Positions 4,546 to 17,996 of a DNA stretch of 64,000 nt are shown one piece after another. Where the stretch lies: positions 1,653 to 65,652 of the forward strand of contig CAYSEN010000001.1 of assembly GCA_964430335.1 (NCBI GenBank). The letters run 5' to 3'. A model generated the notes under the pieces. That model saw nothing but the letters and a program-made list of their open reading frames with translations. It had not been told where the DNA came from and made no database searches. The position numbers and the translations under genes were made by a program. Numbering within the stretch: the first letter of the stretch is position 1; each line of letters begins with the position of its first letter. This DNA is from an uncultured Candidatus Saccharibacteria bacterium. GTDB lineage: Bacteria > Patescibacteriota > Minisyncoccia > Phycocordibacterales > SIBU01.

Positions 4546-4618
4546 GCGCCCATAGCTCAGTTGGTAGAGCACCTGCCTTTTAAGCAGAGGGTCGTAGGTT
4601 CGATTCCTACTGGGCGCA
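4546..4618 (+). tRNA. tRNA-Lys (anticodon UUU)
   Basis: Cloverleaf read by eye: acceptor GCGCCCA/TGGGCGC, D arm GCTC..GAGC, anticodon loop CTTTTAA, T arm GTAGG-TTCGATT-CCTAC. No encoded CCA. Confidence 0.95.
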
Positions 4619-4705: not shown

Positions 4706-4843
4706 CAAGGTCATGAAAATTTTCGAGTGGCGACGAGAAAATTATTCCTGACCACAGGCGAAATGACCAAGCAGGTCTAAATGACCTGCGTGTAGGAATC
4801 GAACGGCGGAGTATAAAATTTTCAGCAGAAAATTTTTCGAGCC

Positions 4844-4886
4844 GGTGACCAGACAAAACTTTTTGACGAAAAAGTTTTAGTCGAGG
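4844..4886 (+). repeat. conserved tRNA-trailer hairpin motif, copy A (GGTGACCAGACAA-stem/loop-TTAGTCGAGG)
   Basis: Shares both flanks with 62061-62105, while the distal stem differs by fully compensatory changes. Confidence 0.8.
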
Positions 4887-4898
4887 GAGATTTCCTAT

Positions 4899-4944
4899 TG
4901 TGCGAGCCGGAGCCATGTTTCGCTACCAAGCGAAACGGGCGAGG
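4899..4944 (+). repeat. 46-nt direct repeat, copy 2
   Basis: Identical to 4660-4705; 239-nt period. Confidence 0.95.
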
Positions 4945-5026
4945 AGGGGTCGCGAGTTTCGAGGCTGACGAGCCGAAGAAAACTTGTGACCACAAGAAAG
5001 TTCACTTAATGAACTATGTTTCTACC

Positions 5027-5428
5027 CTACTCCCTCCCAATCAAATAAACCCCGAGTAATTTTCTAAAATATTCCGTTTCGGGATTAAAACACGCTTCTT
5101 TTATATGCAATAAAGGATGTGACTCCGGTGAATACTCATAATGCGCTCGGATTTCTCCATCAATAAAAAGTCTAATGTGGTACTGAAAAATCTCTTTATC
5201 GATTTTTCTCATACTCAAAACCTCTCCGGGATCTTTCCATGCAATTTTTGCCAATTCAAAACCTTGGTCAAACAAATACGCCTCTAAATCCAATCTGTTG
5301 TAATTGGCGTTTAAATGACCTAGTAAATATTTTTGTCTGAAATCATGAAAACCCAATTTTTCAACCGTTCGTATGATCGGTGGCCAAACCTGATAGGCCA
5401 AATTCCAAAAGAATCGGATTTTTTCCAT
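5027..5428 (-). CDS. hypothetical protein
   Basis: 133-aa ORF with host-like composition, tightly packed upstream of the holA-like gene. No motif recognised. Confidence 0.5.
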   Translation of the reverse strand: MEKIRFFWNLAYQVWPPIIRTVEKLGFHDFRQKYLLGHLNANYNRLDLEAYLFDQGFELAKIAWKDPGEVLSMRKIDKEIFQYHIRLFIDGEIRAHYEYSPESHPLLHIKEACFNPETEYFRKLLGVYLIGRE

Positions 5429-5437
5429 ACAAGTATA

Positions 5438-6154
5438 TTACACGCTCAATATAAATCTCTCAAGACGACTAATAAAATCCACCTCCCCTCTGTGGGCATC
5501 GTGATAAATTGAAACCAGCTCTTGCGCAAATTTACTCAAATCATTATCACTAAAATTTTTCGCATATCTAAGCGCCTTGTTAAAAACAAAAGGGTTTAAA
5601 CCAGATTCGGTAGCGTTTTTAGTTTCTGATGAAATAATCATATTTTTAATCTGCCAAAACAAAATTCCAGAAATTTCCTCTGGTGTGGCCCCACTTCTTA
5701 TGGCTTTCTCATAAATTACCCAGAGTTTTTTCCTATTTCTTTCTCCTAAGGCATCGGCCAAAGCAAAGGTGTTAAATGGTTCAACTTTTTTTTCTTCTTT
5801 ACCCTCGAAGGACTGCACCTTATCGGCAAATTTACCGACCGCATCTAGAGTTTTTTTATCAACAACCTCGTTTATAAAAATAAATACGTTTTCTGAATTT
5901 TTTAGCAAATCCAGCTTTTCAATCACAAAATCTTTAATTTCCTTATTCTCAAAAATCCTGCTAGCAAGAACTATAAATTTTCTTTCAAAAAGCCCCTGTG
6001 AACCAAGAAATTCCTCAAACCTTCCTTCGCTCCAATTGTCCTGGTCAATCTTAAAAAGCTCGGCATCTGGTTTTCTTTTCTGCATAACCGAAACCAGTTC
6101 AAGCGCCTTCGCCCTAGCTGCGTCCATATTTTTTCCGTAAAGAAAATAAAGCAT
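5438..6154 (-). CDS. holA: DNA polymerase III delta subunit-like (short)
   Basis: N-terminal MLYFLYG... pattern and overall helical profile resemble HolA; sits next to polA. Shorter than canonical HolA. Confidence 0.5.
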   Translation of the reverse strand: MLYFLYGKNMDAARAKALELVSVMQKRKPDAELFKIDQDNWSEGRFEEFLGSQGLFERKFIVLASRIFENKEIKDFVIEKLDLLKNSENVFIFINEVVDKKTLDAVGKFADKVQSFEGKEEKKVEPFNTFALADALGERNRKKLWVIYEKAIRSGATPEEISGILFWQIKNMIISSETKNATESGLNPFVFNKALRYAKNFSDNDLSKFAQELVSIYHDAHRGEVDFISRLERFILSV

Positions 6155-6203: not shown

Positions 6204-8675
6204 CTACTTACTTTTCTCCATCTCTCCCCAGTTTTCTCCAACCTTCACTTCTACCTTGCAAACCACACCCTTGGTTTTTTCTGGTGAAATCACACTCTCC
6301 ATAATTTTTTTCGCCTCTGATATAAATTCACCTTCCGCACCTTTTTTAACTTCATAAACCAATTCATCGTGCACTTGGAGCAACAAGAAAACCTTGTCAT
6401 TCAAATTGTTTTTTTCAATGTACTGGTCTGCGTGAATCATCGCGATTTTAATAATATCCGCCTCCGTGCCTTGAATCGGCGCGTTAATAGCCATTCTCTC
6501 AGCTGCCGCTCTAATGAAAGGCAACTTTGAAGAAATTCCTGGAAAATATCTTCTCCTGCCAAAAAATGTTTCAGTGTAGCCTAACTTTCTTGTCTCAGAC
6601 TTTACATCTTCCAAATACTTGGCTAGGCCGGCAAACTTTGAAAAATAATCATTGTAAAATTTTTGAGATTCTTCTCTCGTTGTCCCCTCACCCAAATTCG
6701 CCCTAAGCGCATTTACACCCATTCCGTACATGACTCCGAAGTTGATGACTTTTGCCTTTCTTCTCATGTCAGGAGTAACCTTTTCAGGAGGTACACCGAA
6801 AACCTCCGAAGCCACTGCTGTGTGCACGTCCTCGCCGTTTTTAAAAATCTCAATCAATTTCTGATCGCCCGACAAAAAAGCAGCGATGCGGAGCTCAATT
6901 TGAGAATAATCAAACGCTACAAACTGAAAACCTTTGGTAGCCACAAAAGCGTTTCTGATCGCCCGGCCCAATTCCGTCTTGTTTGGAATGTTTTGCAAGT
7001 TAGGATTTTCACATCCCATTCTTCCCGTTGTTGTTCCAGCCTGCAAAAACTGAGCGTGAAGTTTTCCGTCTTTATCCACCATTTCAGGAATCGTGTCGAT
7101 GTAGGTTCCCAAAAGCTTTGAAAGTTCTCGGTATTCCAAGATCAAAGAAATTATTGGATGGACATCTCTTAGTTTCTCCAATTCAGATTCCTTAGTAGAA
7201 AGTGCTCCACCACTAGTCTTTTTCTGATTCTTGGCCTTAAGTCCAAGTTTTTCAAACAAAATCACACCGAGTTGCTTGGGAGAGCTAACGTTAAACTCCT
7301 CGCCGGCCAAACTCCAAATTTTCTTTTCAAGTCCAGCTAATGTTTTGTGATACTCCACCGACAATTCCTTAAGACGTTCTTTGTCTATAGCAATTCCCCG
7401 CTCTTTCATTTTAGAAACAACTGGCATTAGAGGAACCTCTATGTCGTTGAAAACTGAATTTAATTTATACTCGCTGAGTCTTTTTAAAATAATCTTTTCC
7501 GCTTCTTCAAAAGTTTTAGCACCTGTAAAATTCAAAATATCATCGAGCGTAGGATTTGTGGTGTTGGAATTGACCAACCACAAAGCAATAGCCACTCTCG
7601 CTAAATCTTTTGGATCCGGCGCTGGTATCGAGCTTGCAGAAGTTGAAAATAGGTTCTGAACTGGCGCTTCATTTTTAGTCTCCACTTTGTCACCCACTTT
7701 TGCACCGTTCTCCTTAGTTGAAGTTACACTTTTTCCGGAAAGTGCCTGTGTTAATCTCTGTCCCAGATTTCTAAACTCTAAGTCTGCAAAAATCTTTACG
7801 ATTTTCCCAATTTCAATACTTTCCTTCCACTCTTTTTCTGGCAAAACAAAATCGATAGGCGCGTCTCGTCGAATAGTGGCTAGCATTTTGCTAAACTCTG
7901 CTTCTTCTTCGTTGTCCTTAAGTAATTTAATAATGCGATCAGTAAGACCTGCTTTTTTAAAAGCCTTATCATCTTTTTTTAGACTTGCGTAAATATTTTC
8001 AACAGTGCCAAAGTTTTGTATCAAAATTGAAGCAGTTTTTTCACCGATCCCTTTAATGCCGATGATGTTATCCGAAGGATCTCCTCTTAGACCTTTGTAA
8101 TCTGGTAAGAGTTTAGGCGGAAAACCGAACCTTTTAACCACAGCTTCCTCGTCATAAAGGATCGTATCTTGAATACCTTTTTTCAACGTGTAAACCTGAA
8201 CCTTTTCATCGTCGACAAGCTGGAGTGTATCCATATCTCCTGAAGCAATTATAATGTCTGTTGGATTTTCACCTTCCTTTAGTTTTGAATTTCTATCATT
8301 TATCTTGTCGACAATTGTTCCTAAAATATCGTCGGCTTCAAAACCTTCCTTGTCATACATAGGAATTGAAAACGCTTCGAACACATCTCGAGATCTTTTC
8401 ATCTGAGAAACCAACTCAGGGTCTGCTTTTGCCCTCCCTGCTTTGTAATCTTTGTAAGCCTCGTGTCTGTAGGTCGGCTTTGGTAAATCGTACGCCGCCA
8501 CAATATAATCCGGTTTTAAATCAGCGATAATTTTTATTAACATGCTAGCAACACCATAAAGAGCGCCGGTAGGTTCACCTTTTGAACTGCTAAAGTCAGG
8601 TAGAGCATGATAGGCTCGATGCAATATCGCGTGAGCATCAAGTAACACCAGCCTTTTATTGTCATTTTTGGACAT
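6204..8675 (-). CDS. polA: DNA polymerase I
   Basis: 5'-nuclease N-terminus (LLDAHAILHRAYHALP). Pol motifs A (DYSQIELRI), B (RRKAKVINFGVMYGMG) and C (QVHDELV). Confidence 0.95.
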   Translation of the reverse strand: MSKNDNKRLVLLDAHAILHRAYHALPDFSSSKGEPTGALYGVASMLIKIIADLKPDYIVAAYDLPKPTYRHEAYKDYKAGRAKADPELVSQMKRSRDVFEAFSIPMYDKEGFEADDILGTIVDKINDRNSKLKEGENPTDIIIASGDMDTLQLVDDEKVQVYTLKKGIQDTILYDEEAVVKRFGFPPKLLPDYKGLRGDPSDNIIGIKGIGEKTASILIQNFGTVENIYASLKKDDKAFKKAGLTDRIIKLLKDNEEEAEFSKMLATIRRDAPIDFVLPEKEWKESIEIGKIVKIFADLEFRNLGQRLTQALSGKSVTSTKENGAKVGDKVETKNEAPVQNLFSTSASSIPAPDPKDLARVAIALWLVNSNTTNPTLDDILNFTGAKTFEEAEKIILKRLSEYKLNSVFNDIEVPLMPVVSKMKERGIAIDKERLKELSVEYHKTLAGLEKKIWSLAGEEFNVSSPKQLGVILFEKLGLKAKNQKKTSGGALSTKESELEKLRDVHPIISLILEYRELSKLLGTYIDTIPEMVDKDGKLHAQFLQAGTTTGRMGCENPNLQNIPNKTELGRAIRNAFVATKGFQFVAFDYSQIELRIAAFLSGDQKLIEIFKNGEDVHTAVASEVFGVPPEKVTPDMRRKAKVINFGVMYGMGVNALRANLGEGTTREESQKFYNDYFSKFAGLAKYLEDVKSETRKLGYTETFFGRRRYFPGISSKLPFIRAAAERMAINAPIQGTEADIIKIAMIHADQYIEKNNLNDKVFLLLQVHDELVYEVKKGAEGEFISEAKKIMESVISPEKTKGVVCKVEVKVGENWGEMEKSK

Positions 8676-8691
8676 AAAGCTATTGTAACAA

Positions 8692-9126
8692 CTATAGAGT
8701 TATTTTTCTCGTCTGGTCGTCAACAAATTCAAAATTCATTTTTATAGTATCGTCGGGCAATACATCGGCGACTAAATCTGCCCACTCAATCAAAATTAGA
8801 TTTTTAGGATTTTTTAAAATATTATCGATTCCCAATTTTCTCAATTCATCACCACCCTTCAAACGATAAGCGTCGATGTGTATCAAAGTGTCAAAACGAG
8901 AGTATGAAATTTTGTAAAATTTCATTATGACAAAAGTCGGGCTAGTGATTTGTTCTTTCACGCCAAAGGCCTCCGCTACATATTGCACAAAAGTGGTCTT
9001 ACCAGCGCCCAAATTTCCCACAAGGCCGACAACAGTGGCGCCACTTCTTTCACTTTCTACAATGATCTCACGTAAGGCCTCAACTGCCCCCTTGGTCTCT
9101 TCTAAACTTTTACTGAAAATATCCAT
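8692..9126 (-). CDS. tsaE: tRNA t6A37 biosynthesis ATPase TsaE
   Basis: GNLGAGKTTFVQ P-loop, SPTF and HIDAYRL motifs. ATG at 9126 preferred because the longer ORF (to 9159) runs into the upstream terminator T-tract. Confidence 0.85.
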   Translation of the reverse strand: MDIFSKSLEETKGAVEALREIIVESERSGATVVGLVGNLGAGKTTFVQYVAEAFGVKEQITSPTFVIMKFYKISYSRFDTLIHIDAYRLKGGDELRKLGIDNILKNPKNLILIEWADLVADVLPDDTIKMNFEFVDDQTRKITL

Positions 9127-9167
9127 AAGCGAAATTGTAGCATATACATTTTTTCCCAAAAGAAAAA

Positions 9168-9192
9168 GGCACTTCGATAATCTCGAAGTGCC
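9168..9192 (-). terminator. intrinsic terminator of the high-GC lipoprotein gene
   Basis: ggcacttcga-taatc-tcgaagtgcc, followed on the minus strand by tttttcttttggg. Confidence 0.75.
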
Positions 9193-9213
9193 CGCGTAAA
9201 TTTTGAAGTTGGC

Positions 9214-9789
9214 TTATGGGCCAACTCGGTACCGCCTGATGGGCCCGGGACCATTGAGGTCCCGGATCTCCCGGATTCCTCCGGGAGATCCCCAGTAACG
9301 GTACCCTCCAGGGGGCGTGGGTGGTTCCCAACTGTATCCAGGAACCGTACCACCCTGTGGAAGCACGACCGGGACAGCTGGTGGTGTCATGACAACACCT
9401 TGAGGTGGCTGGGACCAAACCTGCCCTGGAGGAGGCGTGGCCCAGCTTCGCTGGGGACCAAAATTGAACTGTCCGTTCGATCCTGCTTGCGCCTGCTGTG
9501 CAGACGCAAGCCCGTTGGTGCGAGCGTACTCATGCTCACGACGCTCGTACTCCATCTTCACCATCGCCTCCTCGTGTCGGAGGCGTGCCTCCTGCAGTGA
9601 CCGGACATGCCGGTCGTATTGCTTGCCGCCATTTTCTAGCACCCTCTGTTCGGGCTCTTGCCCAAACTGATAGGGGCCCTGTCCACGAACGGCGCGGACG
9701 TGCTCGACCCGTGGGGTCGACGAACAACCGGCGAGAAGTACGGCCATTGTGGCGACGATGACCGAACCGATGAATTTAAAGGTCTTCAT
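9214..9789 (-). CDS. lipoprotein, Pro/Gly-rich C-terminal half, high-GC (foreign composition)
   Basis: Signal peptide with lipobox VLLAGC. 38/60 G+C at 9301-9360 against ~35% in neighbouring genes. Overlapping ORFs in other frames are shadow ORFs. Confidence 0.7.
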   Translation of the reverse strand: MKTFKFIGSVIVATMAVLLAGCSSTPRVEHVRAVRGQGPYQFGQEPEQRVLENGGKQYDRHVRSLQEARLRHEEAMVKMEYERREHEYARTNGLASAQQAQAGSNGQFNFGPQRSWATPPPGQVWSQPPQGVVMTPPAVPVVLPQGGTVPGYSWEPPTPPGGYRYWGSPGGIREIRDLNGPGPIRRYRVGP

Positions 9790-12078: not shown

Positions 12079-13158
12079 ATGTCAAGAAAGTCTAACACAA
12101 AACGAGCAGAAAATGACTCCGAAGAAAACAACACACCTGATGAAAAAACCATAAAAGACAAGGTTTTTTCGGACGATGAAGGTTTTTTAGATCAAACTCT
12201 AAGACCAAGTCATTGGGACGAATATATCGGTCAAAAAAATATTAAGGAGAATTTGAGGATTCTTTTGACCGCTGCCGCTGAAAGAAAACACCCGCCGGAG
12301 CATCTTTTGTTTTACGGCCCTCCAGGATTGGGAAAAACTACCCTCGCCCACCTCATTGCCAAGGAAATTGGTGCACAAATCAAGATAACTTCAGGACCTG
12401 CCATTGAAAAAGTTGGAGATTTAGCATCCGTACTTACAAATTTGTCACCAGGAGACATTCTTTTTATCGATGAAATTCACCGTCTCAACAAAGCTATCGA
12501 GGAAGTGCTATATCCAGCAATGGAATCTGGTCAGCTCGACATCATAATCGGCAAAGGTCCATCAGCCCGCACAATCCAACTTGAACTTCCTCCTTTTACT
12601 CTAATCGCCGCAACTACACGCATCGCACTTCTCTCTTCCCCGCTACGATCACGCTTTGGCGGAGGAGTTTTCAGACTCGAATTTTATTCTGATGAAGAAA
12701 TAGAGGAAATTGTAAAAAGATCTGCAAAAATTTTAGGAGTGGCGGTAGAAAAAACCGCCTCGCAAGAAATTGCCAAGAGAAGTCGTTTCACTCCAAGAAC
12801 TGCAAACTATCTTTTAAAACGAGCCCGAGATTTTGCTCAGGTGAACAAAGGTGATCTTACAAAAGAGATCGTTGATAAATCACTAGCACTGCTCGGAATC
12901 GATGAGCTTGGACTTGGGCACTCAGACAGAGCGCTTCTAAATACACTTATAGAAAAATTTAACGGTGGCCCTGTTGGACTAAACACTTTAGCAGCAGCTC
13001 TTTCTGAGGAGCAAGCAACCATAGAAGAAGTTCATGAACCCTACCTTCTCCAACTTGGCCTGATCGAACGCACACCGAGAGGACGTGTCGCATCCGAAAA
13101 AGCATATCGTCATCTCAAAATCTCCGTTCCAAAAAATCTTCAAGAAAAGCTCCTGTAA
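12079..13158 (+). CDS. ruvB: Holliday junction branch migration ATPase RuvB
   Basis: LLFYGPPGLGKTTLAHLIA, Walker B ILFIDEIHRL and other RuvB-specific motifs. ~30-aa charged N-terminal extension. Confidence 0.95.
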   Translation: MSRKSNTKRAENDSEENNTPDEKTIKDKVFSDDEGFLDQTLRPSHWDEYIGQKNIKENLRILLTAAAERKHPPEHLLFYGPPGLGKTTLAHLIAKEIGAQIKITSGPAIEKVGDLASVLTNLSPGDILFIDEIHRLNKAIEEVLYPAMESGQLDIIIGKGPSARTIQLELPPFTLIAATTRIALLSSPLRSRFGGGVFRLEFYSDEEIEEIVKRSAKILGVAVEKTASQEIAKRSRFTPRTANYLLKRARDFAQVNKGDLTKEIVDKSLALLGIDELGLGHSDRALLNTLIEKFNGGPVGLNTLAAALSEEQATIEEVHEPYLLQLGLIERTPRGRVASEKAYRHLKISVPKNLQEKLL

Positions 13159-13165
13159 AACAGCC

Positions 13166-13208
13166 AAAATAAAAGCCGCCGCGACAAGGTCGCGGCGGCT
13201 TTTATTTT
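13166..13208 (+). terminator. intrinsic terminator after ruvB
   Basis: aaaataaaagccgccgcga-caagg-tcgcggcggcttttatttt. Confidence 0.85.
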
Positions 13209-13482
13209 TGTGTGCCGAAGAGAGAGATTGCGATCCAAAAAGGTTGAACCTTTTTGGATCTAAACACACATTTCACTCTGCATTTTGTGGGCTTGTGACC
13301 AGCATCAATCTCAAAGTTAAATATTTAGAATGATGGCTGCATTAAAATGTGGAGAATTTTCATCCAGCACAAATCACTTTGTGATGGATTAACCCTAAAT
13401 CGAAACTTGAGATTCTCCCGAACTCACGCTTCTCTTAACCTTCGCGGACTTTTATAAGGAGGTCCGCACCCCGTGAAATAGA

Positions 13483-13791
13483 TCAACCGCCTTGGCTGAC
13501 CCATCGCTTGGCGGCATCAAGAGCCTCTCCAGCGTTCTCGAAACAGACAATGTCCGTTTCGTTGTGCCAGAACTTAATCTGGTCTGTGGCGTTCGCCAGC
13601 GCATCCAGCACCTCGGCGTCCGTCACTATTTTTCGAGTCGGGTGTAAACCCCGACCGAAGAAGCGTTCGAAACAACCTTCGGAACCTCGAACGCCTGAAA
13701 TCTGGAATGTTCGGTCACCAACCTTCCATTCCAGAGATTTCCGATTCCCCTCCACCCAAATGCGGAGGAGGGCTAGTTGTGTGGTGTTCAT
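13483..13791 (-). CDS. hypothetical protein (high-GC island gene e)
   Basis: 102-aa ORF with island composition, same strand as the other island genes. No motif recognised. Confidence 0.55.
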   Translation of the reverse strand: MNTTQLALLRIWVEGNRKSLEWKVGDRTFQISGVRGSEGCFERFFGRGLHPTRKIVTDAEVLDALANATDQIKFWHNETDIVCFENAGEALDAAKRWVSQGG

Positions 13792-13816
13792 AATGAACAG
13801 GGTGTGGGGTAAAGCC

Positions 13817-14197
13817 CTACACCAACGAGATCAGACAGACCTCTTTTTCCGTCATGTCACCCATACACCCGTAAGGGCAGTGGCCCTTTGGGGTGACATC
13901 GTAATCGTAGGAGATTCCAATGTTGCCGCAAATGCAGCAGCCTCCTCCTGGGACCCACCACACACCGGCGATGGGTTGAAAAACTCCCGTAGGAGTCAGA
14001 TAGGCCAGGAGTCCTTCGGATTCCTGGCCGCTATAGACAAGACGCTTTTTTGCAGCGTCTAGCACGGGGACACACTCTTCCCCCTGTGTTACTGAGCCGT
14101 CGGCCCAGTAACAGACGTAGCGAGGAATCTCGTTCCTCGCCTGAAGAGAACGAAGCAATGCTTCGATCTCTTTTTTTGATTTTGTTGAACTACTCAT
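13817..14197 (-). CDS. hypothetical Cys-rich protein (high-GC island gene d)
   Basis: 126-aa ORF with clustered cysteines (GGGCCICG, HCPYGCMG). No family recognised. Confidence 0.55.
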   Translation of the reverse strand: MSSSTKSKKEIEALLRSLQARNEIPRYVCYWADGSVTQGEECVPVLDAAKKRLVYSGQESEGLLAYLTPTGVFQPIAGVWWVPGGGCCICGNIGISYDYDVTPKGHCPYGCMGDMTEKEVCLISLV

Positions 14198-14285
14198 AGA
14201 ATTTCATTTTCGAAAAATCAAAAACAAAATTCTATGAGTAGTGCTGAATACTGTCTTTAGATTTACCAACGTTTTGATAAACCCA

Positions 14286-14335
14286 ATAAACAGGAGAAGT
14301 TGTAACCGCAACTTCTCCAAACCTAACGACAATTT
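14286..14335 (-). repeat. island hairpin element, copy 1 (terminator-like)
   Basis: 10-bp stem ggagaagttg/caacttctcc with a 6-nt loop. ~50 nt near-identical to 16058-16109. Confidence 0.85.
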
Positions 14336-14481
14336 TTTCTCGGGATAGTCGTCCTTCCCATGACACTGCATGTCAGGCCACACCATTTAGAACGGTGGCA
14401 ACTTTCCAGCATTTTTCATGCCGGACTTTTACGCACTTCTGTTACGAAGGTGGTGCGATCCTTCGGATGTCTTTCCATCAG

Positions 14482-14805
14482 TCAGAGAGTGACGCGGATA
14501 GCCACAACCTCGTCGTCCGCACTGCATTTGAATATACCAAGTACCTGTTCAAGGCCGTTTGTGCGACGTTGAAAGTCTTGGTCATCATTTGCATTGTGAC
14601 GATTGGTGGCATTTTCATGCGCAGTCTTCGGGAAAAAACAAACGCAATAAACGCTGTCGTTCCAAAAACCTGAACATGAATCCTCATCACTCTCTCCCTC
14701 CAAAATCGCTTCTGGCACATAAGTGAAATCAAATGTACCGAAGGTATTTCGAGCAATCTTTATTGCCCGAATGATCTCAGAGGGATTAAGGCTAACTTCC
14801 TTCAT
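14482..14805 (-). CDS. hypothetical protein (high-GC island gene c)
   Basis: ATG at 14805 is preceded by GGGAGGAGAG at 7-nt spacing. The ORF-track version extends to 14874. Confidence 0.55.
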   Translation of the reverse strand: MKEVSLNPSEIIRAIKIARNTFGTFDFTYVPEAILEGESDEDSCSGFWNDSVYCVCFFPKTAHENATNRHNANDDQDFQRRTNGLEQVLGIFKCSADDEVVAIRVTL

Positions 14806-14923
14806 GGAAGCTCTCCTCCCACTTTTTTCACTGAAGTGGCAAACCGTCGAATGCAGTTCCGCCAAACAGCTCACGTTTTACGATAGGCAGTGAGGGCCTT
14901 TGAGAGACTGACGGTCTCTCAAA

Positions 14924-15853
14924 CTACTTGAGGTACTTCGTGAGCACCTCAACCACCCGCTCGACTGAAAGGGTCGAGCTGACACCCTGAGGGCTTCCGC
15001 CGATGGTCGGGGAACCTCCCCAACCCGGCTCGAGGGTCGCCAACTCGGCGAGCGCGGACTTGATGTCCGCGTACTTGCTGGCCTCGAAGGCGCAGATCGT
15101 GAACTTCCGGTGGGGCTCTCCCGCCCCGAGCCGAAAGCTCGGGTTGAGCGCCACCACGACCGGCGCCAGCGCATAGCCAACCGACGTGGCGGCGCGGTGC
15201 GTCGACTCGACGACCGCAATGCACCCGCCGGCACAAACCTCGTGCCGAATCGCTCCGCTCTCAAGAGCGGCGATCATGTCGGCGCGCTCGCGCTCAACCT
15301 GAGCGCGATAGTTGCCCGGCTCCTCGCCGGTCAACAACCACTTTTCCATAGTGGCGACCCGCTCCCCGAGTGGGATCTTGAAGTCCGCAACCGCCGCCGC
15401 AATCGCGGCGAGCGGTCGGGACGATTCGGCCCCTGCCGAGCTATCGTCCCACGGGCTGCCCCGGGTCGGGAGGGGTTTCGGGCCGGTGTACCCGCCACGT
15501 GCGAACTTGTCGGCGGCGGCAACCATACTGATCCGATCCATCGCGGACTCGAGACCTTCGCCCTTCGCCCGGATGTTGAAGATCGCCATCGCCCCAACAC
15601 TGTCGAGGTCGGCTCGCACAGTGACCAATGTCGCCCTCTCGGCCGGGATCTCTACCGTCAGCGCGGCCTCGATGGCCGAGCTGTTGGCGTCTCCTTCCGA
15701 TCCGTGCTGGGGGTCGAGGTTGTACACGCACCGAGCCGCAAGGCTCGGGACGGTCACCTCGATTCCGAACACCTGCCCGGACGAGAAAACCTTCTCGTTC
15801 GCCTCAGAGGCGGCCGGAAGATTGCGGGGATCCAGAATTGCAAAATGAAACAT
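14924..15853 (-). CDS. hypothetical protein, 309 aa (high-GC island gene b)
   Basis: Longest island ORF with sensible amino-acid composition, whereas overlapping frames are Arg/Pro/Gly-rich shadow ORFs. ATG at 15853 preceded by AGGTGA. Only a loose DHH/DHHA1-like motif spacing (RADLDSVGA ... GWGGSPTIGG). Confidence 0.65.
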   Translation of the reverse strand: MFHFAILDPRNLPAASEANEKVFSSGQVFGIEVTVPSLAARCVYNLDPQHGSEGDANSSAIEAALTVEIPAERATLVTVRADLDSVGAMAIFNIRAKGEGLESAMDRISMVAAADKFARGGYTGPKPLPTRGSPWDDSSAGAESSRPLAAIAAAVADFKIPLGERVATMEKWLLTGEEPGNYRAQVERERADMIAALESGAIRHEVCAGGCIAVVESTHRAATSVGYALAPVVVALNPSFRLGAGEPHRKFTICAFEASKYADIKSALAELATLEPGWGGSPTIGGSPQGVSSTLSVERVVEVLTKYLK

Positions 15854-16057
15854 TTTGTAATTCACCTATCTTCAAACAAAAGCAAAAAAATGTGACTATT
15901 TTGGTACACACTTATTTTGTTCTCACAAAACGCGGGTTTCTAAGTCGCGAATTGTGCCTGAATCGGATTTGTCGACAAGTGAGCGGGGGTCTAGACTGTC
16001 CCCATTCACCTGTCGAAACCAATTCGTGTCTACAGACTGGCAAAATTTGTCAGCCTG

Positions 16058-16109
16058 ATAAACAGGAGAAGTTGTAACCACAACTTCTCCAAAACCCGTG
16101 CGACAATTT
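16058..16109 (-). repeat. island hairpin element, copy 2
   Basis: Same stem as copy 1, with one loop difference (taacca vs taaccg). Flanks ataaaca... and ...cgacaattt are conserved. Confidence 0.85.
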
Positions 16110-16158
16110 ATCCATTTTGTGGAATAGGAAGTCGCCCTTCCTTTGTTGTTGGTCTGGA

Positions 16159-16557
16159 CTAGCGATATGTTGCATCTTTCCAGACTGTAAAACTACGACC
16201 TTCCGCGGTCGTAGTTTCGATGATCTGGTGACCGGGAGCTTCCCCGGTCTCAGCCAGAACCTCCTCATCCAGGCATTCCATCCTGGATGAAAGAGTGGTC
16301 AGCCGGAGATTCCCGGCCACGGCGAGTTTCTCGAACTCGCCGTTCATCTCGCGCAACTGCGCGAGACAGTAAGCCAGATGTTCTGGCGCATCTTCGACGC
16401 CTGTAGCATCGACCGATATCTCCGGACCGCACAGGCAGTCCGGAGATGTCTCATTCAGAAAGAGCAACTGCCCCCTCCGAACGAACCACAATTTCATTTT
16501 CATAAAATTGTAAAAAGGATGGTACCGCCAGCCAACATGGCCAGCGAACAAATACAA
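16159..16557 (-). CDS. hypothetical protein (high-GC island gene a)
   Basis: ORF of 114-132 aa. Start ambiguous: TTG at 16557 or ATG at 16503 (MKMKLWF...). Confidence 0.5.
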   Translation of the reverse strand: MYLFAGHVGWRYHPFYNFMKMKLWFVRRGQLLFLNETSPDCLCGPEISVDATGVEDAPEHLAYCLAQLREMNGEFEKLAVAGNLRLTTLSSRMECLDEEVLAETGEAPGHQIIETTTAEGRSFTVWKDATYR

Positions 16558-17189
16558 TCCCTCTTTCCGGCACTAAGTAAATCTAACGCCGGAGAAGAGG
16601 AATAACATTGCGGTTATTGCTTTGGCAAAATTTGTTCCGCCTTACTCCTTCCTCTCTATTTAGTTTTCAAATTACTTCCCTACTCTACCTATCACTTTCC
16701 GCAACTCGCGGACTTCCTGGTGTAAGGACATTTTGAAGTACAAAGTGGGTTAGACTTTACACTTCATCGATGTCCTGACGAGCCTTCTCGTCGACAACGG
16801 GCGATGAGTTTACCTTAAAGGTATATCTCCGTCATTTGGAATGGGTTTCGAAGCCAGACCATATGTAGAGCACTCATCATTCGAAACGAGATATTCAAAA
16901 GGCTGCCTCTCTCCCCACTCTCTCTTCTTTCCATACTTAGCCGCTTTCGCGGAGGCTATGGGACCTTCCCTTTCGGGCTAGAGGTGGGGGGCAATCTTTC
17001 GGCTATCTCCTGAACGAACTTGACTTTCTGGCAATAGAATATCTTAATTAGATAGCGAGTGTCAATTATTTATGACATAAAATGGCCGGTTATTGCAAAA
17101 TCTAGTAACAACATGGATTTTATGGCTTATCCACATATTACTATTGTCATATACTTGTGACAAAAACAGCTTTATGCTAGACTAAAAGT
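16558..17189. other. ORF-free, hairpin-dense region with strong purine/pyrimidine strand asymmetry (candidate leader/ncRNA or island end)
   Basis: No ORF of 60 aa or more. Helices at 16725-16776, 16777-16792 and 16941-16952. 26/27 pyrimidines at 16906-16932. DnaA box at 17127-17135. Confidence 0.4.
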
Positions 17190-17996
17190 ATGGAAAATTC
17201 ATCATACGAAAAATTTTTAAGCGAGTTGGGCCTAACAAAAGAACAATCTTCCGTGTATGAAAGCCTTCTAAAAAACGGCCTTTTGCCGGCTAGACTTGTT
17301 TCCTTAAAAACAGGAATAAAGCGCAGCTTGGCCTATAAGATAATTGAACAGCTGATTGCCCTAGGTTTGGTTGAAAAAAGGGAAAATATTGGCAAAGTCA
17401 CTCTGTTCTTCCCTACCCATCCCGGAAAACTTCGTGAATTGGTCCAGAGACGCGAGGAGGAGCTGAAAAAGGCGGAGGCTAGCCTCGGTGGAATTATGGG
17501 CAAAATGGTTTCGGATTTTAATTTACTTTCAGGAAAGCCAAATGTTCAATTCTATGAAGGAATGGACGGTATGAAAAAAGTTCTTGAAGACTCTTTGACT
17601 GCGGAGGGTGAGATTTTGGCTTACTCAGATATTGTGGCGATACAAAAATACATACCCGAAGTAAATGCTGACTACGTTGCGAAAAGAAGAAAATTTGGTG
17701 TTAAGAAAAAAGGTTTGATATTTGATTCTCCAGAAGCTAGAAAAATACTAGAGGGTTACAATCCTGACATTACTGAAAACAAATTCATTAAATTTAAAGC
17801 TGATCCTTCAAAAACAATTATGCAGATATATGACAACAAGATTTCATATATCACTCTTAGTGAAAATCAAATGATAGGCGTTATTGTGGAGGACAAACAA
17901 ATCGCTTCACTGCACAGAAACCTATACGAGTATCTTTGGAATACTATTCCGCAAGACGGCTCATCTGCGTCGGTCGCGAAAAAGTTTGAAGATTAG
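17190..17996 (+). CDS. TrmB-family HTH transcriptional regulator
   Basis: N-terminal winged-helix pattern LGLTKEQSSVYESLLKNGLLPARLVSLKTGIKRSLAYKIIEQLIALGLVEK. Confidence 0.65.
   Translation: MENSSYEKFLSELGLTKEQSSVYESLLKNGLLPARLVSLKTGIKRSLAYKIIEQLIALGLVEKRENIGKVTLFFPTHPGKLRELVQRREEELKKAEASLGGIMGKMVSDFNLLSGKPNVQFYEGMDGMKKVLEDSLTAEGEILAYSDIVAIQKYIPEVNADYVAKRRKFGVKKKGLIFDSPEARKILEGYNPDITENKFIKFKADPSKTIMQIYDNKISYITLSENQMIGVIVEDKQIASLHRNLYEYLWNTIPQDGSSASVAKKFED

What the first reader, a model, noticed from the sequence alone, without database searches (positions are those of the whole stretch)
13270..17189. Compositionally foreign high-GC island with five ORFan genes between ruvB and a TrmB-like regulator
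Direct counts give 43/60 G+C at 15001-15060 versus 21/60 at 12121-12180 (ruvB). The block carries five same-strand (minus) ORFs of 102, 126, 107, 309 and 114-132 aa, and I cannot assign a family motif to any of them. All frames are open around 14.9-15.9 kb, which is the usual shadow-ORF pattern of high-GC DNA. The 14805 start has a GGAGGAG Shine-Dalgarno, and the genes are partitioned by a duplicated hairpin element. I see no integrase, transposase, tRNA or convincing direct repeat at the borders. One protein is Cys-rich (GGGCCICG, HCPYGCMG). The 309-aa protein shows only a loose DHH/DHHA1-like motif spacing (RADLDSVGA ... GWGGSPTIGG), which is speculative. In a ~35% GC reduced genome this is one of two things: a recently acquired uncharacterised module from a high-GC donor (host bacterium or phage), or an assembly chimera. 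It is the best candidate in the window for an undescribed system.
Basis: partly seen in the sequence, partly recalled or inferred. Interest (0 to 1): 0.8.

Follow-up and report, generated by a model that had tools for sequence, protein, structure and literature searches.

The report
Ribozyme-punctuated GC-rich gene island
The high-GC block is real DNA of a reduced (Patescibacteria-type) genome: a variable gene array beside a TrmB regulator, built around a conserved phosphodiesterase-like gene whose relatives sit in type III CRISPR loci, with the genes separated by conserved folded RNAs and a self-cleaving twister ribozyme.

Summary
In detail: GC reaches 0.62-0.70 at 14.9-15.8 kb against 0.39 for the rest of the window, with five minus-strand ORFs and a duplicated hairpin.

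- **Not a chimera.** Both junctions recur in independent assemblies.
- **Not five ORFans.** The 309-aa gene (D) has over 800 close homologs. A, C and E have a few. Only B is nearly unique.
- **CRISPR link outside Patescibacteria.** There, most of the examined loci carry type III CRISPR, Cas10 or CARF genes near D.
- **TrmB link inside Patescibacteria.** There, D is an orphan, with a TrmB regulator nearby in 30 of 54 loci.
- **GC excess is widespread.** D is 0.10-0.26 richer in GC than its host in about 34 of 58 loci.
- **The intergenic DNA is not filler.** It holds conserved, covarying RNA modules and a twister-P1 ribozyme (13270-13348). Related loci carry type III hammerheads beside D and the other genes.

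My best reading is a horizontally exchanged, ribozyme-processed cassette array whose core enzyme degrades a nucleotide messenger. The functions are inferred, not shown.

The parts
17190..17996 (+). TrmB-family HTH regulator, divergent from the array. It is context and the conserved partner of the locus.
   Evidence: Pfam PF01978 on the identical gene in L002 and L003. A TrmB homolog lies near D in 30 of 54 loci. Its GC3 is 0.38, like the host.
17038..17065 (-). Promoter-like site (TTGACA, 16 nt, GATATT) that could start the array transcript.
   Evidence: Consensus scan, 10 of 12 matches. A pattern match only.
16701..16960 (-). NC1: a conserved structured RNA of about 250 nt between TrmB and the first gene.
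   Evidence: No ORF is conserved here and indels are not in multiples of three. Full-length copies occur in L012, L083, L069, L065, L080 and L048, each next to a TrmB gene. RNAalifold predicts 34 pairs, 14 with compensatory changes. No Rfam match at E<=1.
16590..16712 (-). NC2: conserved leader segment before gene E.
   Evidence: 85% identical over 79 nt to L062 4330-4408, and also present in L012.
16159..16503 (-). Gene E, 114 aa (132 aa from TTG at 16557), acidic, function unknown.
   Evidence: ORF. A 40% homolog lies next to a D homolog in L065. No family match. pI 4.7.
16027..16145 (-). [not shown]
   Evidence: Second copy of the Z module. Loop-to-downstream pairing CGAC/GUCG covaries with CAAC/GUUG and CGAU/AUCG in other copies. 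Terminator-like by the pattern scan.
15861..16050 (-). NC4: conserved leader directly upstream of D.
   Evidence: Matches L012 5784-5984 and L008 upstream of D. Matches L074 5821-5882 at 90% over 63 nt, although the D proteins of those two genomes are only 42% identical.
14924..15853 (-). Gene D, 309 aa: DHH/DHHA1-fold phosphoesterase-like protein, the conserved core of the locus.
14792..14911 (-). X: conserved structured 5' leader ending in the GGAGGAG Shine-Dalgarno (14813-14819) of gene C.
   Evidence: 13 further loci (18 hits in all, some of them duplicate assemblies). Stems covary: CUCAC/GUGAG with CUUAU/AUAAG, and CCAC/GUGG with CCGU/ACGG.
14482..14805 (-). Gene C, 107 aa, acidic: the variable ORF of an X-ORF-Y-Z cassette.
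   Evidence: A 50% homolog lies directly after D in L008. In 12 such cassettes the ORFs fall into at least 9 unrelated families.
14192..14485 (-). [not shown]
   Evidence: Profile hits at E 1e-31 to 1e-76 in about 15 loci. 85.5% of cells paired, 19 pairs with changes on both sides, 0 of 500 shuffles reach this, and slid controls give 37-45%. The first pseudoknot occurs as CGCAC/GUGCG, CACUC/GAGUG, AGUGC/GCACU and GGAGC/GCUCC.
13817..14197 (-). Gene B, 126 aa, Cys-rich (8 Cys), nearly an ORFan.
   Evidence: Only 3 clusters in 5.8 billion proteins, plus one 53% homolog in L077. A 25-nt inverted repeat (14189-14242) spans its start codon.
13483..13791 (-). Gene A, 102 aa, function unknown.
   Evidence: Homologs of about 50% identity lie downstream of D homologs in L012 and L080.
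13270..13348 (-). Twister-P1 self-cleaving ribozyme candidate. From my memory of the twister literature the cut should fall near 13344/13343; no tool output gives it.
   Evidence: Rfam RF03160, 50.5 bits, E 1e-10, full model, below the gathering score of 67.2. As I read the printed alignment, consensus UCCC...GGG is replaced by UCAC...GUG (a change on both sides; pairing inferred, not annotated). The same variant core follows the A homolog in L080 with a different stem and an 88-nt insert.
13166..13208 (.). Perfect 20-bp GC-rich hairpin with U and A tracts: a bidirectional terminator shared with convergent ruvB. It marks the end of the array.
   Evidence: (I3).

Best explanation
**What it is.** The block is a genuine accessory locus of a Patescibacteria (Paceibacteria/Nomurabacteria-like) genome. 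It sits at a recurrent chromosomal position, divergent from a TrmB-family regulator.

**The core gene D.**
- Shown: D has a DHH/DHHA1 fold.
- Shown: it belongs to an unannotated family that, outside Patescibacteria, is an ancillary gene of type III CRISPR-Cas loci. There it lies next to Cas10 and CARF effectors (Card1/Can2-like, Cas_APE2256, NE0113).
- Inferred: D is a metal-dependent phosphodiesterase that destroys a nucleotide second messenger. Candidates are the cyclic-oligoadenylate or SAM-AMP class, or its linear and nanoRNA products. Here it has been captured as an orphan.

**The small genes.** They are lineage-variable cassettes. Conserved RNA modules frame them: the X leader with the ribosome-binding site, and the Y-Z pseudoknotted 3' module that begins at the stop codon.

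**Ribozymes.** Self-cleaving ribozymes stand at gene boundaries. This window has one twister. Relatives have type III hammerheads, which in L023 flank D itself. They presumably cut the long RNA into single-gene mRNAs, as proposed for ribozyme-flanked genes in prophages.

**The GC excess.** It belongs to the module and not to the host. Module contents are exchanged horizontally among Patescibacteria, and D ultimately comes from GC-rich bacteria.
For: **Real and conserved.**
- Four assemblies carry the block.
- TrmB lies near D in 30 of 54 loci, and the 809-aa GNAT gene in 14.

**D fold.**
- pLDDT 96.
- Foldseek PDB top 14 hits are all DHH/DHHA1: PAP phosphatase 8a8k, PggH 7d62, RecJ2, DhhP, NrnA and the DHHA1-type C-terminal domain of alanyl-tRNA synthetase.
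- Near-invariant acidic and His residues: E32, D47, H50, D82, D84, D115, D157, and a GWGGS...GSP loop.

**CRISPR link, 8 clear loci plus 1 weak.**
- L056: Card1, then D.
- L058: D, then NE0113.
- L057: weak Cas10 palm match.
- L090: D, CARF, RT-Cas1, Cas2, RAMP, Cas10.
- L091, L092, L094: Cmr modules.
- L095: Cmr module, then D and NE0113.
- L096: Cas2, then D.

**Precedent.**
- The DHH enzyme NrN is genetically and physically tied to the SAM-AMP-activated effector CorA in type III loci (gene adjacent or fused), and immunity was lost when its DHH motif was mutated (PMC10600005). That it degrades SAM-AMP is my recollection of that paper, not seen in the passages read.
- A DHH-DHHA1 nuclease degrades cA4 (PMC8284326).

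**RNA modules.** Covariation counts are, and copy numbers. ORFs between X and Y are unrelated to one another.

**Ribozymes.**
- Twister.
- Hammerhead cores on the D strand in 11 distinct loci, including pairs flanking D in L023 and a lipoprotein gene in L075.
- Literature: hammerheads flank individual genes of changing identity in prophages (PMC3088659).

**Exchange and GC.**
- D identity is 60-78% whatever the TrmB (25-68%) or GNAT (26-50%) identity.
- GC excess occurs in about 34 of 58 loci.
- CRISPR-linked relatives live in 0.59-0.67 GC hosts.
Against: - No cas10, CARF or CRISPR array was found in the window or in 836 kb of Patescibacteria loci. That test was tblastn only, which is insensitive. 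D therefore has no visible signalling partner here.
- D lacks the canonical DHH tripeptide and the usual motif order, and it fails the Pfam DHH and DHHA1 models. Catalysis is unproven.
- This window holds only one recognised ribozyme, and it scores below Rfam's gathering threshold.
- No integrase, tRNA or border repeat explains mobility.
- Four-fold sites between D orthologs are near saturation (observed 0.34-0.56 against 0.26-0.36 expected). Persistent GC3 of 0.6-0.9 therefore needs repeated transfer or some maintaining force (selection or biased gene conversion). I could not tell these apart.
- A single transcript is assumed, not shown.
Confidence: 0.55

Rival explanations
1. Counter-defence island. 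The array is an anti-defence locus like phage anti-CRISPR or ardA operons. It would belong either to an integrated mobile element or to the episymbiont itself. D would act like AcrIII-1, draining type III CRISPR or CBASS-type messengers. The small variable acidic proteins would be further inhibitors, and TrmB would play the Aca-like repressor.
For: - The D family has the same distribution as Crn2/AcrIII-1: CRISPR loci plus viral contigs (5 loci).
- L093 carries a STIV_B116-like protein next to a D homolog (PF08960; from my own knowledge this is the AcrIII-1/Crn2 fold family).
- The small proteins have no known families, patchy distribution and often low pI: C 4.6, E 4.7, B 5.1.
- In Agrobacterium, ribozyme-flanked genes include the anti-restriction gene ardA (PMC3088659).
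- An HTH regulator is adjacent.
Against: - No phage structural, integrase or replication genes lie nearby.
- The locus sits at a fixed site between housekeeping genes.
- Cassette pI values are mixed, 4.2 to 9.8.
- No inhibitor activity is known for any of these proteins.
- It is unclear why a bacterium's chromosome would need such a locus.
Confidence: 0.2
2. Housekeeping nanoRNase or pAp phosphatase. D would be the lineage's functional NrnA, cleaning up short RNAs, for instance ribozyme or RNase products. Its high GC would reflect amino-acid composition and expression-linked codon choice. The neighbours would be incidental.
For: - The nearest structures are NrnA, PAP phosphatase, pGpG phosphodiesterase and TM1595.
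- Conservation is very high, 60-78% across classes.
- GC1 and GC2 are also raised, 0.65 and 0.52.
Against: - No other gene in 64 kb approaches a GC3 of 0.80.
- D's phylogeny is uncoupled from its neighbours.
- One Patescibacteria subclade has host-like GC3 of 0.2-0.35, so the protein does not require GC-rich codons.
- Relatives sit inside CRISPR loci and not with RNA-turnover genes.
- Only 66 loci were found among 185,579 species representatives. The pattern search undercounts, however.
Confidence: 0.15
3. A single recent transfer from a high-GC donor that has not yet ameliorated.
For: - There is a strong GC3 contrast.
- CRISPR-linked relatives live in GC-rich bacteria.
- Strain-level variation is higher in A and B than in C, D and E.
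Against: - The same anomaly occurs at the same TrmB-linked position in dozens of divergent genomes.
- The D alleles involved differ by 25-60% in protein sequence and are nearly saturated at four-fold sites.
- The nearest non-Patescibacteria homologs found (proteobacterial and actinobacterial genome representatives) are 41% identical to D; L096 scored 49% in the representative search.
Confidence: 0.05
4. Assembly chimera, or an integron-like (CALIN) cassette array whose hairpins are attC recombination sites.
For: - There are same-strand small ORFs of unrelated families separated by hairpin-containing repeats.
- There is an abrupt change in composition.
Against: - Chimera: four independent assemblies and conserved synteny speak against it.
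- Integron: neither the five products nor the two flanking genes match an integrase family.
- The hairpins are 26 nt and lie inside 290-nt motifs with pseudoknots and many G-U pairs. That argues for folding as RNA and not as single-stranded DNA.
- The motifs begin exactly at stop codons and end in ribosome-binding sites.
Confidence: 0.03

Closest known systems
NrN, the DHH-family phosphodiesterase of CorA-type type III CRISPR systems (Bacteroides fragilis; PMC10600005)
   Different: D fails the Pfam DHH and DHHA1 models and has no DHH tripeptide. Its CRISPR-linked relatives sit with CARF nucleases (Card1-like, Cas_APE2256, NE0113), not with CorA. In this window there is no CRISPR system at all.
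Ring nucleases with dual host and virus distribution (Crn2/AcrIII-1), and the membrane DHH-DHHA1 nuclease that degrades cA4 (PMC8284326)
   Same: The family is found both in type III CRISPR loci and on viral contigs. The partners are cA4-type effectors.
   Different: The fold is unrelated to Crn2 (DUF1874). D is soluble, not membrane-anchored. No biochemical data exist. The 2025 ring-nuclease survey (PMC12409355) does not contain the term DHH.
NrnA, PAP phosphatase, PggH and TM1595 (nanoRNA, pAp and pGpG phosphoesterases)
   Different: Sequence identity is 10-16%. The motif set is rearranged: N-x-D-P-Q-H precedes the DxD motif, and GWGGS replaces GGGH. The genomic context differs.
Ribozyme-flanked gene arrays of prophages (hammerhead and twister; Perreault 2011, PMC3088659; Weinberg 2015 as cited in PMC4604425)
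   Same: Self-cleaving ribozymes stand between same-strand genes whose identity changes from genome to genome. Twister and hammerhead occur in the same kind of locus.
   Different: Here the array lies in Patescibacteria chromosomes next to TrmB, with no phage or integrase genes. It is centred on a DHH-like enzyme. It also carries extra conserved non-ribozyme RNA modules (X, Y-Z, NC1, NC4) with no Rfam match.
Integron gene cassettes
   Same: Promoterless small ORFs of unrelated families lie in one orientation, each bounded by a conserved structured element.
   Different: There is no integrase. The boundary elements are long RNA-type motifs tied to start and stop codons, not attC sites.

Membership tests
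DHH/DHHA1 phosphoesterase superfamily | Two-domain DHH plus DHHA1 fold | tested here: met
   [not shown]
DHH/DHHA1 phosphoesterase superfamily | Sequence match to Pfam PF01368 (DHH) or PF02272 (DHHA1) | tested here: not met
   No hit for D. Of 77 family members, one gives a weak DHH hit at E 0.048. A profile search against PDB sequences finds no DHH protein.
DHH/DHHA1 phosphoesterase superfamily | Canonical motifs I-IV (DxD, D, DHH, D) in that order, and GGGH in DHHA1 | tested here: inconclusive
   D82-L-D84-S-V-G matches motif I. D115 and D157 are conserved. There is no DHH tripeptide. A conserved N45-x-D47-P-Q-H50 lies before motif I, and G277-W-G-G-S replaces GGGH. No residue-level structural superposition was available.
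DHH/DHHA1 phosphoesterase superfamily | Metal-dependent phosphoester hydrolysis | not testable with these tools
   Needs enzyme assays.
Type III CRISPR ancillary phosphodiesterase (NrN-like or ring-nuclease-like) | Encoded next to cas10 (cmr/csm) and messenger-activated effectors | tested here: not met
   Met for non-Patescibacteria relatives: L056, L058, L090-L092 and L094-L096. Not met in this window: there are no cas or CARF hits and no CRISPR-like repeats (insensitive test).
Type III CRISPR ancillary phosphodiesterase (NrN-like or ring-nuclease-like) | Hydrolyses cyclic oligoadenylate or SAM-AMP | not testable with these tools
   Biochemistry is required.
Twister ribozyme (Rfam RF03160, type P1) | Covariance-model score at or above the gathering threshold | tested here: not met
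   50.5 bits against 67.2, although E = 1e-10 and the match covers the full model.
Twister ribozyme (Rfam RF03160, type P1) | Conserved core nucleotides, P1/P2/P4 stems and tertiary pairings | tested here: met
   UUUAAUGCAGCC ... GGUCACAAGCCC ... AAAUGCAGAGUG aligns to the consensus. As I read the printed alignment, the consensus CCC...GGG is replaced by CAC...GUG on both sides; the model output does not annotate this tertiary pairing. The same core follows the A homolog in L080, with a different P4 stem.
Twister ribozyme (Rfam RF03160, type P1) | Self-cleavage giving 2',3'-cyclic phosphate and 5'-OH ends | not testable with these tools
   Needs in vitro transcription.
Ribozyme-flanked gene array (as in prophages) | Several self-cleaving ribozymes flanking individual same-strand genes of variable identity | tested here: inconclusive
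   Met in related loci: L023 has two hammerheads around D, L075 has two around a 93-aa lipoprotein gene, and L037, L041, L043 and L082 have two to four each. This window has one twister and no hammerhead core.
Integron or CALIN cassette array | IntI integrase and attC sites | tested here: not met
   Neither the five products nor the two flanking genes match an integrase family. The repeats are RNA-type motifs with pseudoknots and G-U pairs.
Classical genomic island or prophage | Integrase, tRNA target or flanking direct repeats | tested here: not met
   The nearest tRNA is at 4546. There are no border repeats. The flanks are ruvB and TrmB. Compositional deviation and variable content are present.

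The most novel reading that the evidence does not exclude
Patescibacteria carry a previously undescribed kind of locus: an RNA-framed cassette system.
- Unrelated small genes are slotted between fixed structured RNA modules: the X leader, the Y-Z pseudoknotted trailer, and NC1 and NC4.
- Self-cleaving ribozymes release each gene from the long transcript.
- The array is built around an orphaned type III-CRISPR-type messenger phosphodiesterase.

On this reading, the array is a counter-defence or host-interaction arsenal of these episymbionts. Some of its unclassified RNA modules, which sit where hammerheads sit in sister loci, would be new ribozyme or riboswitch classes. The family-wide GC excess would be actively maintained.
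Probability: 0.2. Interest if true: 0.9.

Novelty: new variant of a known kind. Interest (0 to 1): 0.74.

Why it matters
**A candidate new CRISPR accessory family.** The locus points to a large DHH/DHHA1-like family: at least 714 clusters at 50% identity, with no Pfam or NCBIfam model. This family is an unrecognised accessory of type III CRISPR loci and a candidate new messenger-degrading enzyme. The prediction can be tested directly with cA3, cA4, cA6 and SAM-AMP.

**New RNA candidates from a poorly charted lineage.** The locus yields several covarying RNA motifs with no Rfam match. They lie in exactly the kind of ribozyme-rich neighbourhood that previously yielded the twister-sister, pistol and hatchet ribozymes. 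They are therefore good candidates for new ribozyme or riboswitch classes.

**Ribozyme-flanked cassettes outside prophages.** Ribozyme-flanked gene cassettes were known only from prophages. Here they exist in the chromosomes of ultra-small episymbiotic bacteria, tied to one regulator.

**A clean case for studying composition.** The gene stays 10-26 GC points above its host across dozens of lineages. That makes it a good case for separating repeated transfer, selection on synonymous sites and biased gene conversion.

Tried and rejected
**Family searches.**
- Pfam, PHROGs, PADLOC and NCBIfam gave nothing usable for any of the five proteins.
- Pfam gave nothing for ten larger neighbours of D in Patescibacteria loci.
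- A profile search against PDB sequences returned only chance hits to NrdH.

- The AFDB50 fold library was unavailable.
- The diverse alignment A1 was too variable for the locus search, so I used a tighter one.

**RNA searches.**
- Rfam at gathering threshold found only distant tRNAs.
- In E-value mode it found the twister but no known family for X, Y-Z, NC1, NC2 or NC4.
- The Y core pattern is absent from viral contigs.

**CRISPR components in the window.** tblastn of Cas10, RAMP, CARF and Card1 proteins against the window and 78 Patescibacteria loci found nothing, and the window has no CRISPR-like repeat arrays.

**Ideas considered and dropped.**
- Peptide in Y: the 20-aa ORF that starts at the ATG inside Y is frame-shifted in L061, so the RNA and not a peptide is conserved.
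- Hairpins as plain terminators or attC sites: they are embedded in longer covarying motifs.
- NC1 as a small protein gene: no conserved ORF, and indels are not in multiples of three.
- X as a degenerate hammerhead: its covarying hairpin does not fit the hammerhead core.
- Cassette proteins as uniformly acidic: they are not.

**Literature.** Searches found no paper on ribozymes or these motifs in the candidate phyla radiation.

Full report
**1. The observation**

The window averages 0.40 GC. The block from 13.3 to 17.2 kb rises to 0.45-0.70, with a plateau of 0.62-0.70 at 14.9-15.8 kb.

Five minus-strand ORFs are present:
- A: 13483-13791
- B: 13817-14197
- C: 14482-14805
- D: 14924-15853
- E: 16159-16503

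GC3 is 0.80 in D and 0.57-0.62 in A, B and E. C is 0.43. Every other sizeable gene in the 64 kb is 0.23-0.41, with one exception at 9214-9789. The 26-nt hairpin occurs twice and nowhere else in the window. The GGAGGAG before C and the Cys-rich strings in B are there. No tRNA, border repeat or integrase-like product was found.

**2. Not an artefact**

The identical D protein lies on four contigs from four samples. L001 runs from E through A, ruvB, the pilB-like ATPase and polA. L002 and L003 run from the 809-aa acetyltransferase and TrmB into the block. L003 runs from TrmB through gene A into the spacer before ruvB; L001 carries the ruvB side. These copies differ a little (A 97-98%, B 93-94%, spacers about 97%), so they are separate strains and not one misassembly.

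**3. D is not an ORFan**

D has 813 database hits, and the best 120 are 57-75% identical over the full length. They come mostly from Patescibacteria bins. An exhaustive search finds 714 clusters at 50% identity. None carries a Pfam domain. Pfam, NCBIfam, PHROGs and PADLOC are all silent.

An AlphaFold model built on 77 diverse members is confident, with pLDDT 96. Its nearest solved structures are all DHH/DHHA1 enzymes:
- Foldseek: PAP phosphatase, PggH, RecJ2, DhhP and NrnA.
- Viral DHH proteins are also the top hits in BFVD.

The family keeps a DxD-S-x-G motif (D82, D84) and further invariant acidic and His residues (E32, D47, H50, D115, D157). It also keeps a glycine-rich GWGGS...GSP loop. 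It lacks the DHH tripeptide and the usual motif order. Family membership by sequence is not met, and catalysis is inferred.

**4. What the family does elsewhere**

In non-Patescibacteria genomes, D homologs sit inside type III CRISPR-Cas loci:
- L056 and L092: a Card1-type endonuclease, then D.
- L058 and L095: D, then an NE0113 CARF protein.
- L090: D, a Cas_APE2256 CARF protein, RT-Cas1, Cas2, RAMP, Cas10.
- L091, L092 and L094: Cmr modules.
- L096: Cas2, then D.
- L093: D lies in a defence island beside a STIV_B116-like protein (PF08960; from my own knowledge the AcrIII-1/Crn2 family).

Five viral contigs also carry family members. There is precedent for DHH enzymes in this signalling. NrN is encoded beside or fused to the SAM-AMP-activated effector CorA and its DHH motif is needed for immunity (PMC10600005); that it degrades SAM-AMP is my recollection of that paper. 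A DHH-DHHA1 nuclease degrades cA4 (PMC8284326). A 2025 survey of ring nucleases does not mention DHH proteins.

I therefore read D as a messenger or nanoRNA phosphodiesterase of CRISPR-ancillary origin. In the window and in 836 kb of Patescibacteria loci I found no cas or CARF gene (tblastn only), and the window holds no CRISPR-like repeat array. Here it is an orphan.

**5. The conserved neighbourhood in Patescibacteria**

Among the 54 of 66 genome-representative loci in which D was recovered as an ORF, a TrmB-family regulator lies near D in 30, and the 809-aa GNAT protein lies beyond it in 14. The genes between and after them change from genome to genome and have no known families.

A, C, E and B each reappear next to a D or TrmB homolog in some other genome: A in L012 and L080, C in L008, E in L065, B in L077. 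B's family is tiny, with 3 clusters. Content is therefore mosaic, drawn from a shared pool.

**6. The composition anomaly belongs to the module**

D is at least 0.10 richer in GC than the rest of its locus in about 34 of 58 loci. The extreme is GC3 of 0.92 in a 0.45 genome. One subclade has host-like GC3 of 0.2-0.35. L080 shows a 6.5-kb GC-rich island with D, an A homolog and other shared genes.

D identity between genomes (60-78%) is unrelated to TrmB identity (25-68%) or GNAT identity (26-50%), with r = 0.2. For example, L048 is close by its neighbours but has a 41% D, while L023 is distant but has a 78% D. This argues for exchange of D alleles.

Four-fold sites between alleles are close to saturation, so the alleles are old. 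CRISPR-linked relatives live in 0.59-0.67 GC hosts. Origin in GC-rich bacteria followed by circulation among Patescibacteria fits these facts. I cannot exclude selection or biased gene conversion as the force that keeps GC3 high.

**7. The spacers are conserved RNAs**

Spacer DNA matches distant loci at 75-90% identity, even where the D proteins are only 33-42% identical. I distinguish five modules.
- **NC1 (16701-16960).** About 250 nt. It is found beside TrmB in seven genomes. RNAalifold predicts 34 pairs, 14 with compensatory changes, and no conserved ORF is present.
- **X (14792-14911).** A leader ending in the ribosome-binding site, with covarying stems. It occurs in 13 further loci.
- **Y-Z (14192-14485).** It begins at C's stop codon. 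It has two pseudoknots, the first seen in four compensatory versions, and contains the 'duplicated hairpin'. On 11 sequences, 85.5% of cells pair and 19 pairs change on both sides. No shuffle of 500 reaches this, and slid controls pair at 37-45%.
- **Second Z copy (16027-16145)** and **NC4 (15861-16050).** Together they form D's leader.

In 12 X-ORF-Y-Z units, the enclosed ORFs belong to at least nine unrelated families. None of these RNAs matches Rfam at E<=1.

**8. Ribozymes**

Rfam in E-value mode finds a full-length twister-P1 match at 13270-13348 on the gene strand: 50.5 bits, E 1e-10, gathering score 67.2. As I read the printed alignment, consensus CCC...GGG is replaced by CAC...GUG; the tertiary pairing itself is not annotated in the output. 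The same variant core follows the A homolog in L080, with a different stem and an 88-nt insert.

Related loci carry canonical type III hammerheads on the D strand, in 11 distinct loci. Two flank D in L023. Two flank a 93-aa lipoprotein gene in L075. L037, L041, L043 and L082 have two to four each. The Rfam E-values of the hits I scanned run from 1e-6 to 6e-3, all below the gathering score.

In L062 and L075 the hammerhead stands right after the Z hairpin. The window has instead a simpler hairpin (W) framed by the same CUGU...ACAG stem. That W is a hammerhead relic is my inference.

The literature describes hammerheads flanking single genes of changing identity in prophages, including ardA. It describes twister and hammerhead as associated with phage genes and with each other (PMC3088659; PMC4604425).

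**9. Synthesis**

The most economical model is a TrmB-linked, horizontally exchanged array. It is transcribed as one RNA, punctuated by structured modules and self-cleaving ribozymes, and built around an orphaned CRISPR-type DHH-fold phosphodiesterase.

| Status | Claim |
|---|---|
| Shown | Reality and contiguity of the block |
| Shown | The D family, its fold and its contexts |
| Shown | Conservation and covariation of the RNAs |
| Shown | Ribozyme matches |
| Shown | The cross-genome GC excess |
| Inferred | Enzyme activity and substrate of D |
| Inferred | A single transcript and its processing |
| Inferred | Regulation by TrmB |
| Inferred | The reason for the high GC |
| Unknown | The roles of A, B, C and E |

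**10. Verdict**

The finding is real and more interesting than a simple foreign island, but its functions remain unproven. It is best filed as a new variant of two known things: ribozyme-flanked gene arrays, and CRISPR-ancillary DHH phosphodiesterases. It also yields several new RNA motif candidates.

Noticed in passing
window 9214-9789 (-): A second compositional outlier: a 191-aa ORF with GC1/2/3 of 0.70/0.52/0.61 and only weak lipoprotein-signal hits. It lies between tsaE and the pilB-like ATPase. It has no Pfam family (listed as a 193-aa gene in L001).
   Followed up: partly
window 14189-14242: A 25-nt inverted repeat (88% complementary, 4-nt loop) spans the start codon of gene B at 14197. 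It could hide the start site in RNA.
   Followed up: no
window 14204-14386 (-): A 60-aa ORF, called as a gene in one public assembly (L004), lies wholly inside the conserved Y-Z RNA. It is probably not protein-coding.
   Followed up: partly
L075 2074-2128 and 2551-2605 (-): Two type III hammerheads bracket a 93-aa predicted lipoprotein gene (signal peptide ending in LAGC). The excised RNA would carry 5'-OH and 2',3'-cyclic-phosphate ends.
   Followed up: partly
L023 about 4550 and about 5752 (+): Two nearly identical hammerheads flank the D homolog itself (4760-5676). That homolog is 78% identical to the window's D.
   Followed up: partly
window 16010-16058 and L012, L077, L080, L083: Motif W (CUGUU-UAU-hairpin-UAG-ACAG) sits after the Z hairpin, exactly where L062 and L075 have a hammerhead. 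Its stems covary. It looks like a hammerhead without the catalytic core and stem II.
   Followed up: partly
L012 about 9075-9180: A GGUCACAAGCCC twister-like core lies downstream of the A homolog. The flanking segments appear to be in a different order, possibly a permuted twister type. Rfam does not score it.
   Followed up: no
L029 and L059 (same genome, SO_2017_GW1_117): One Patescibacteria genome carries two D paralogs. One groups with the main Patescibacteria clade. The other groups with the CRISPR-linked proteobacterial clade in the rough tree.
   Followed up: no
L090 10994-12964 and L096 1-490: The type III CRISPR loci that hold D homologs use RT-Cas1 fusion proteins, which acquire spacers from RNA.
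   Followed up: no
L087 and L088 (IMG/VR contigs of 181 and 257 kb): Jumbo-phage-sized viral contigs encode distant D-family members (26% identity, GC3 0.13). The family therefore also exists in AT-rich phages.
   Followed up: no
window 17944-17996: The 3' ends of the convergent TrmB gene and the 809-aa GNAT gene overlap by 53 nt. The same pairing recurs in 14 loci.
   Followed up: no
L080 (reverse orientation) 6671-8356 and 8617-9417; L008 9784-11496; L012 2899-3705: Two larger proteins of unknown family recur in these islands. One is 561-570 aa (starts MKV...RGLKVV). The other is 266-268 aa (starts MIVKI.RGIG.PGKLWTGDVP). Neither has a Pfam hit.
   Followed up: partly
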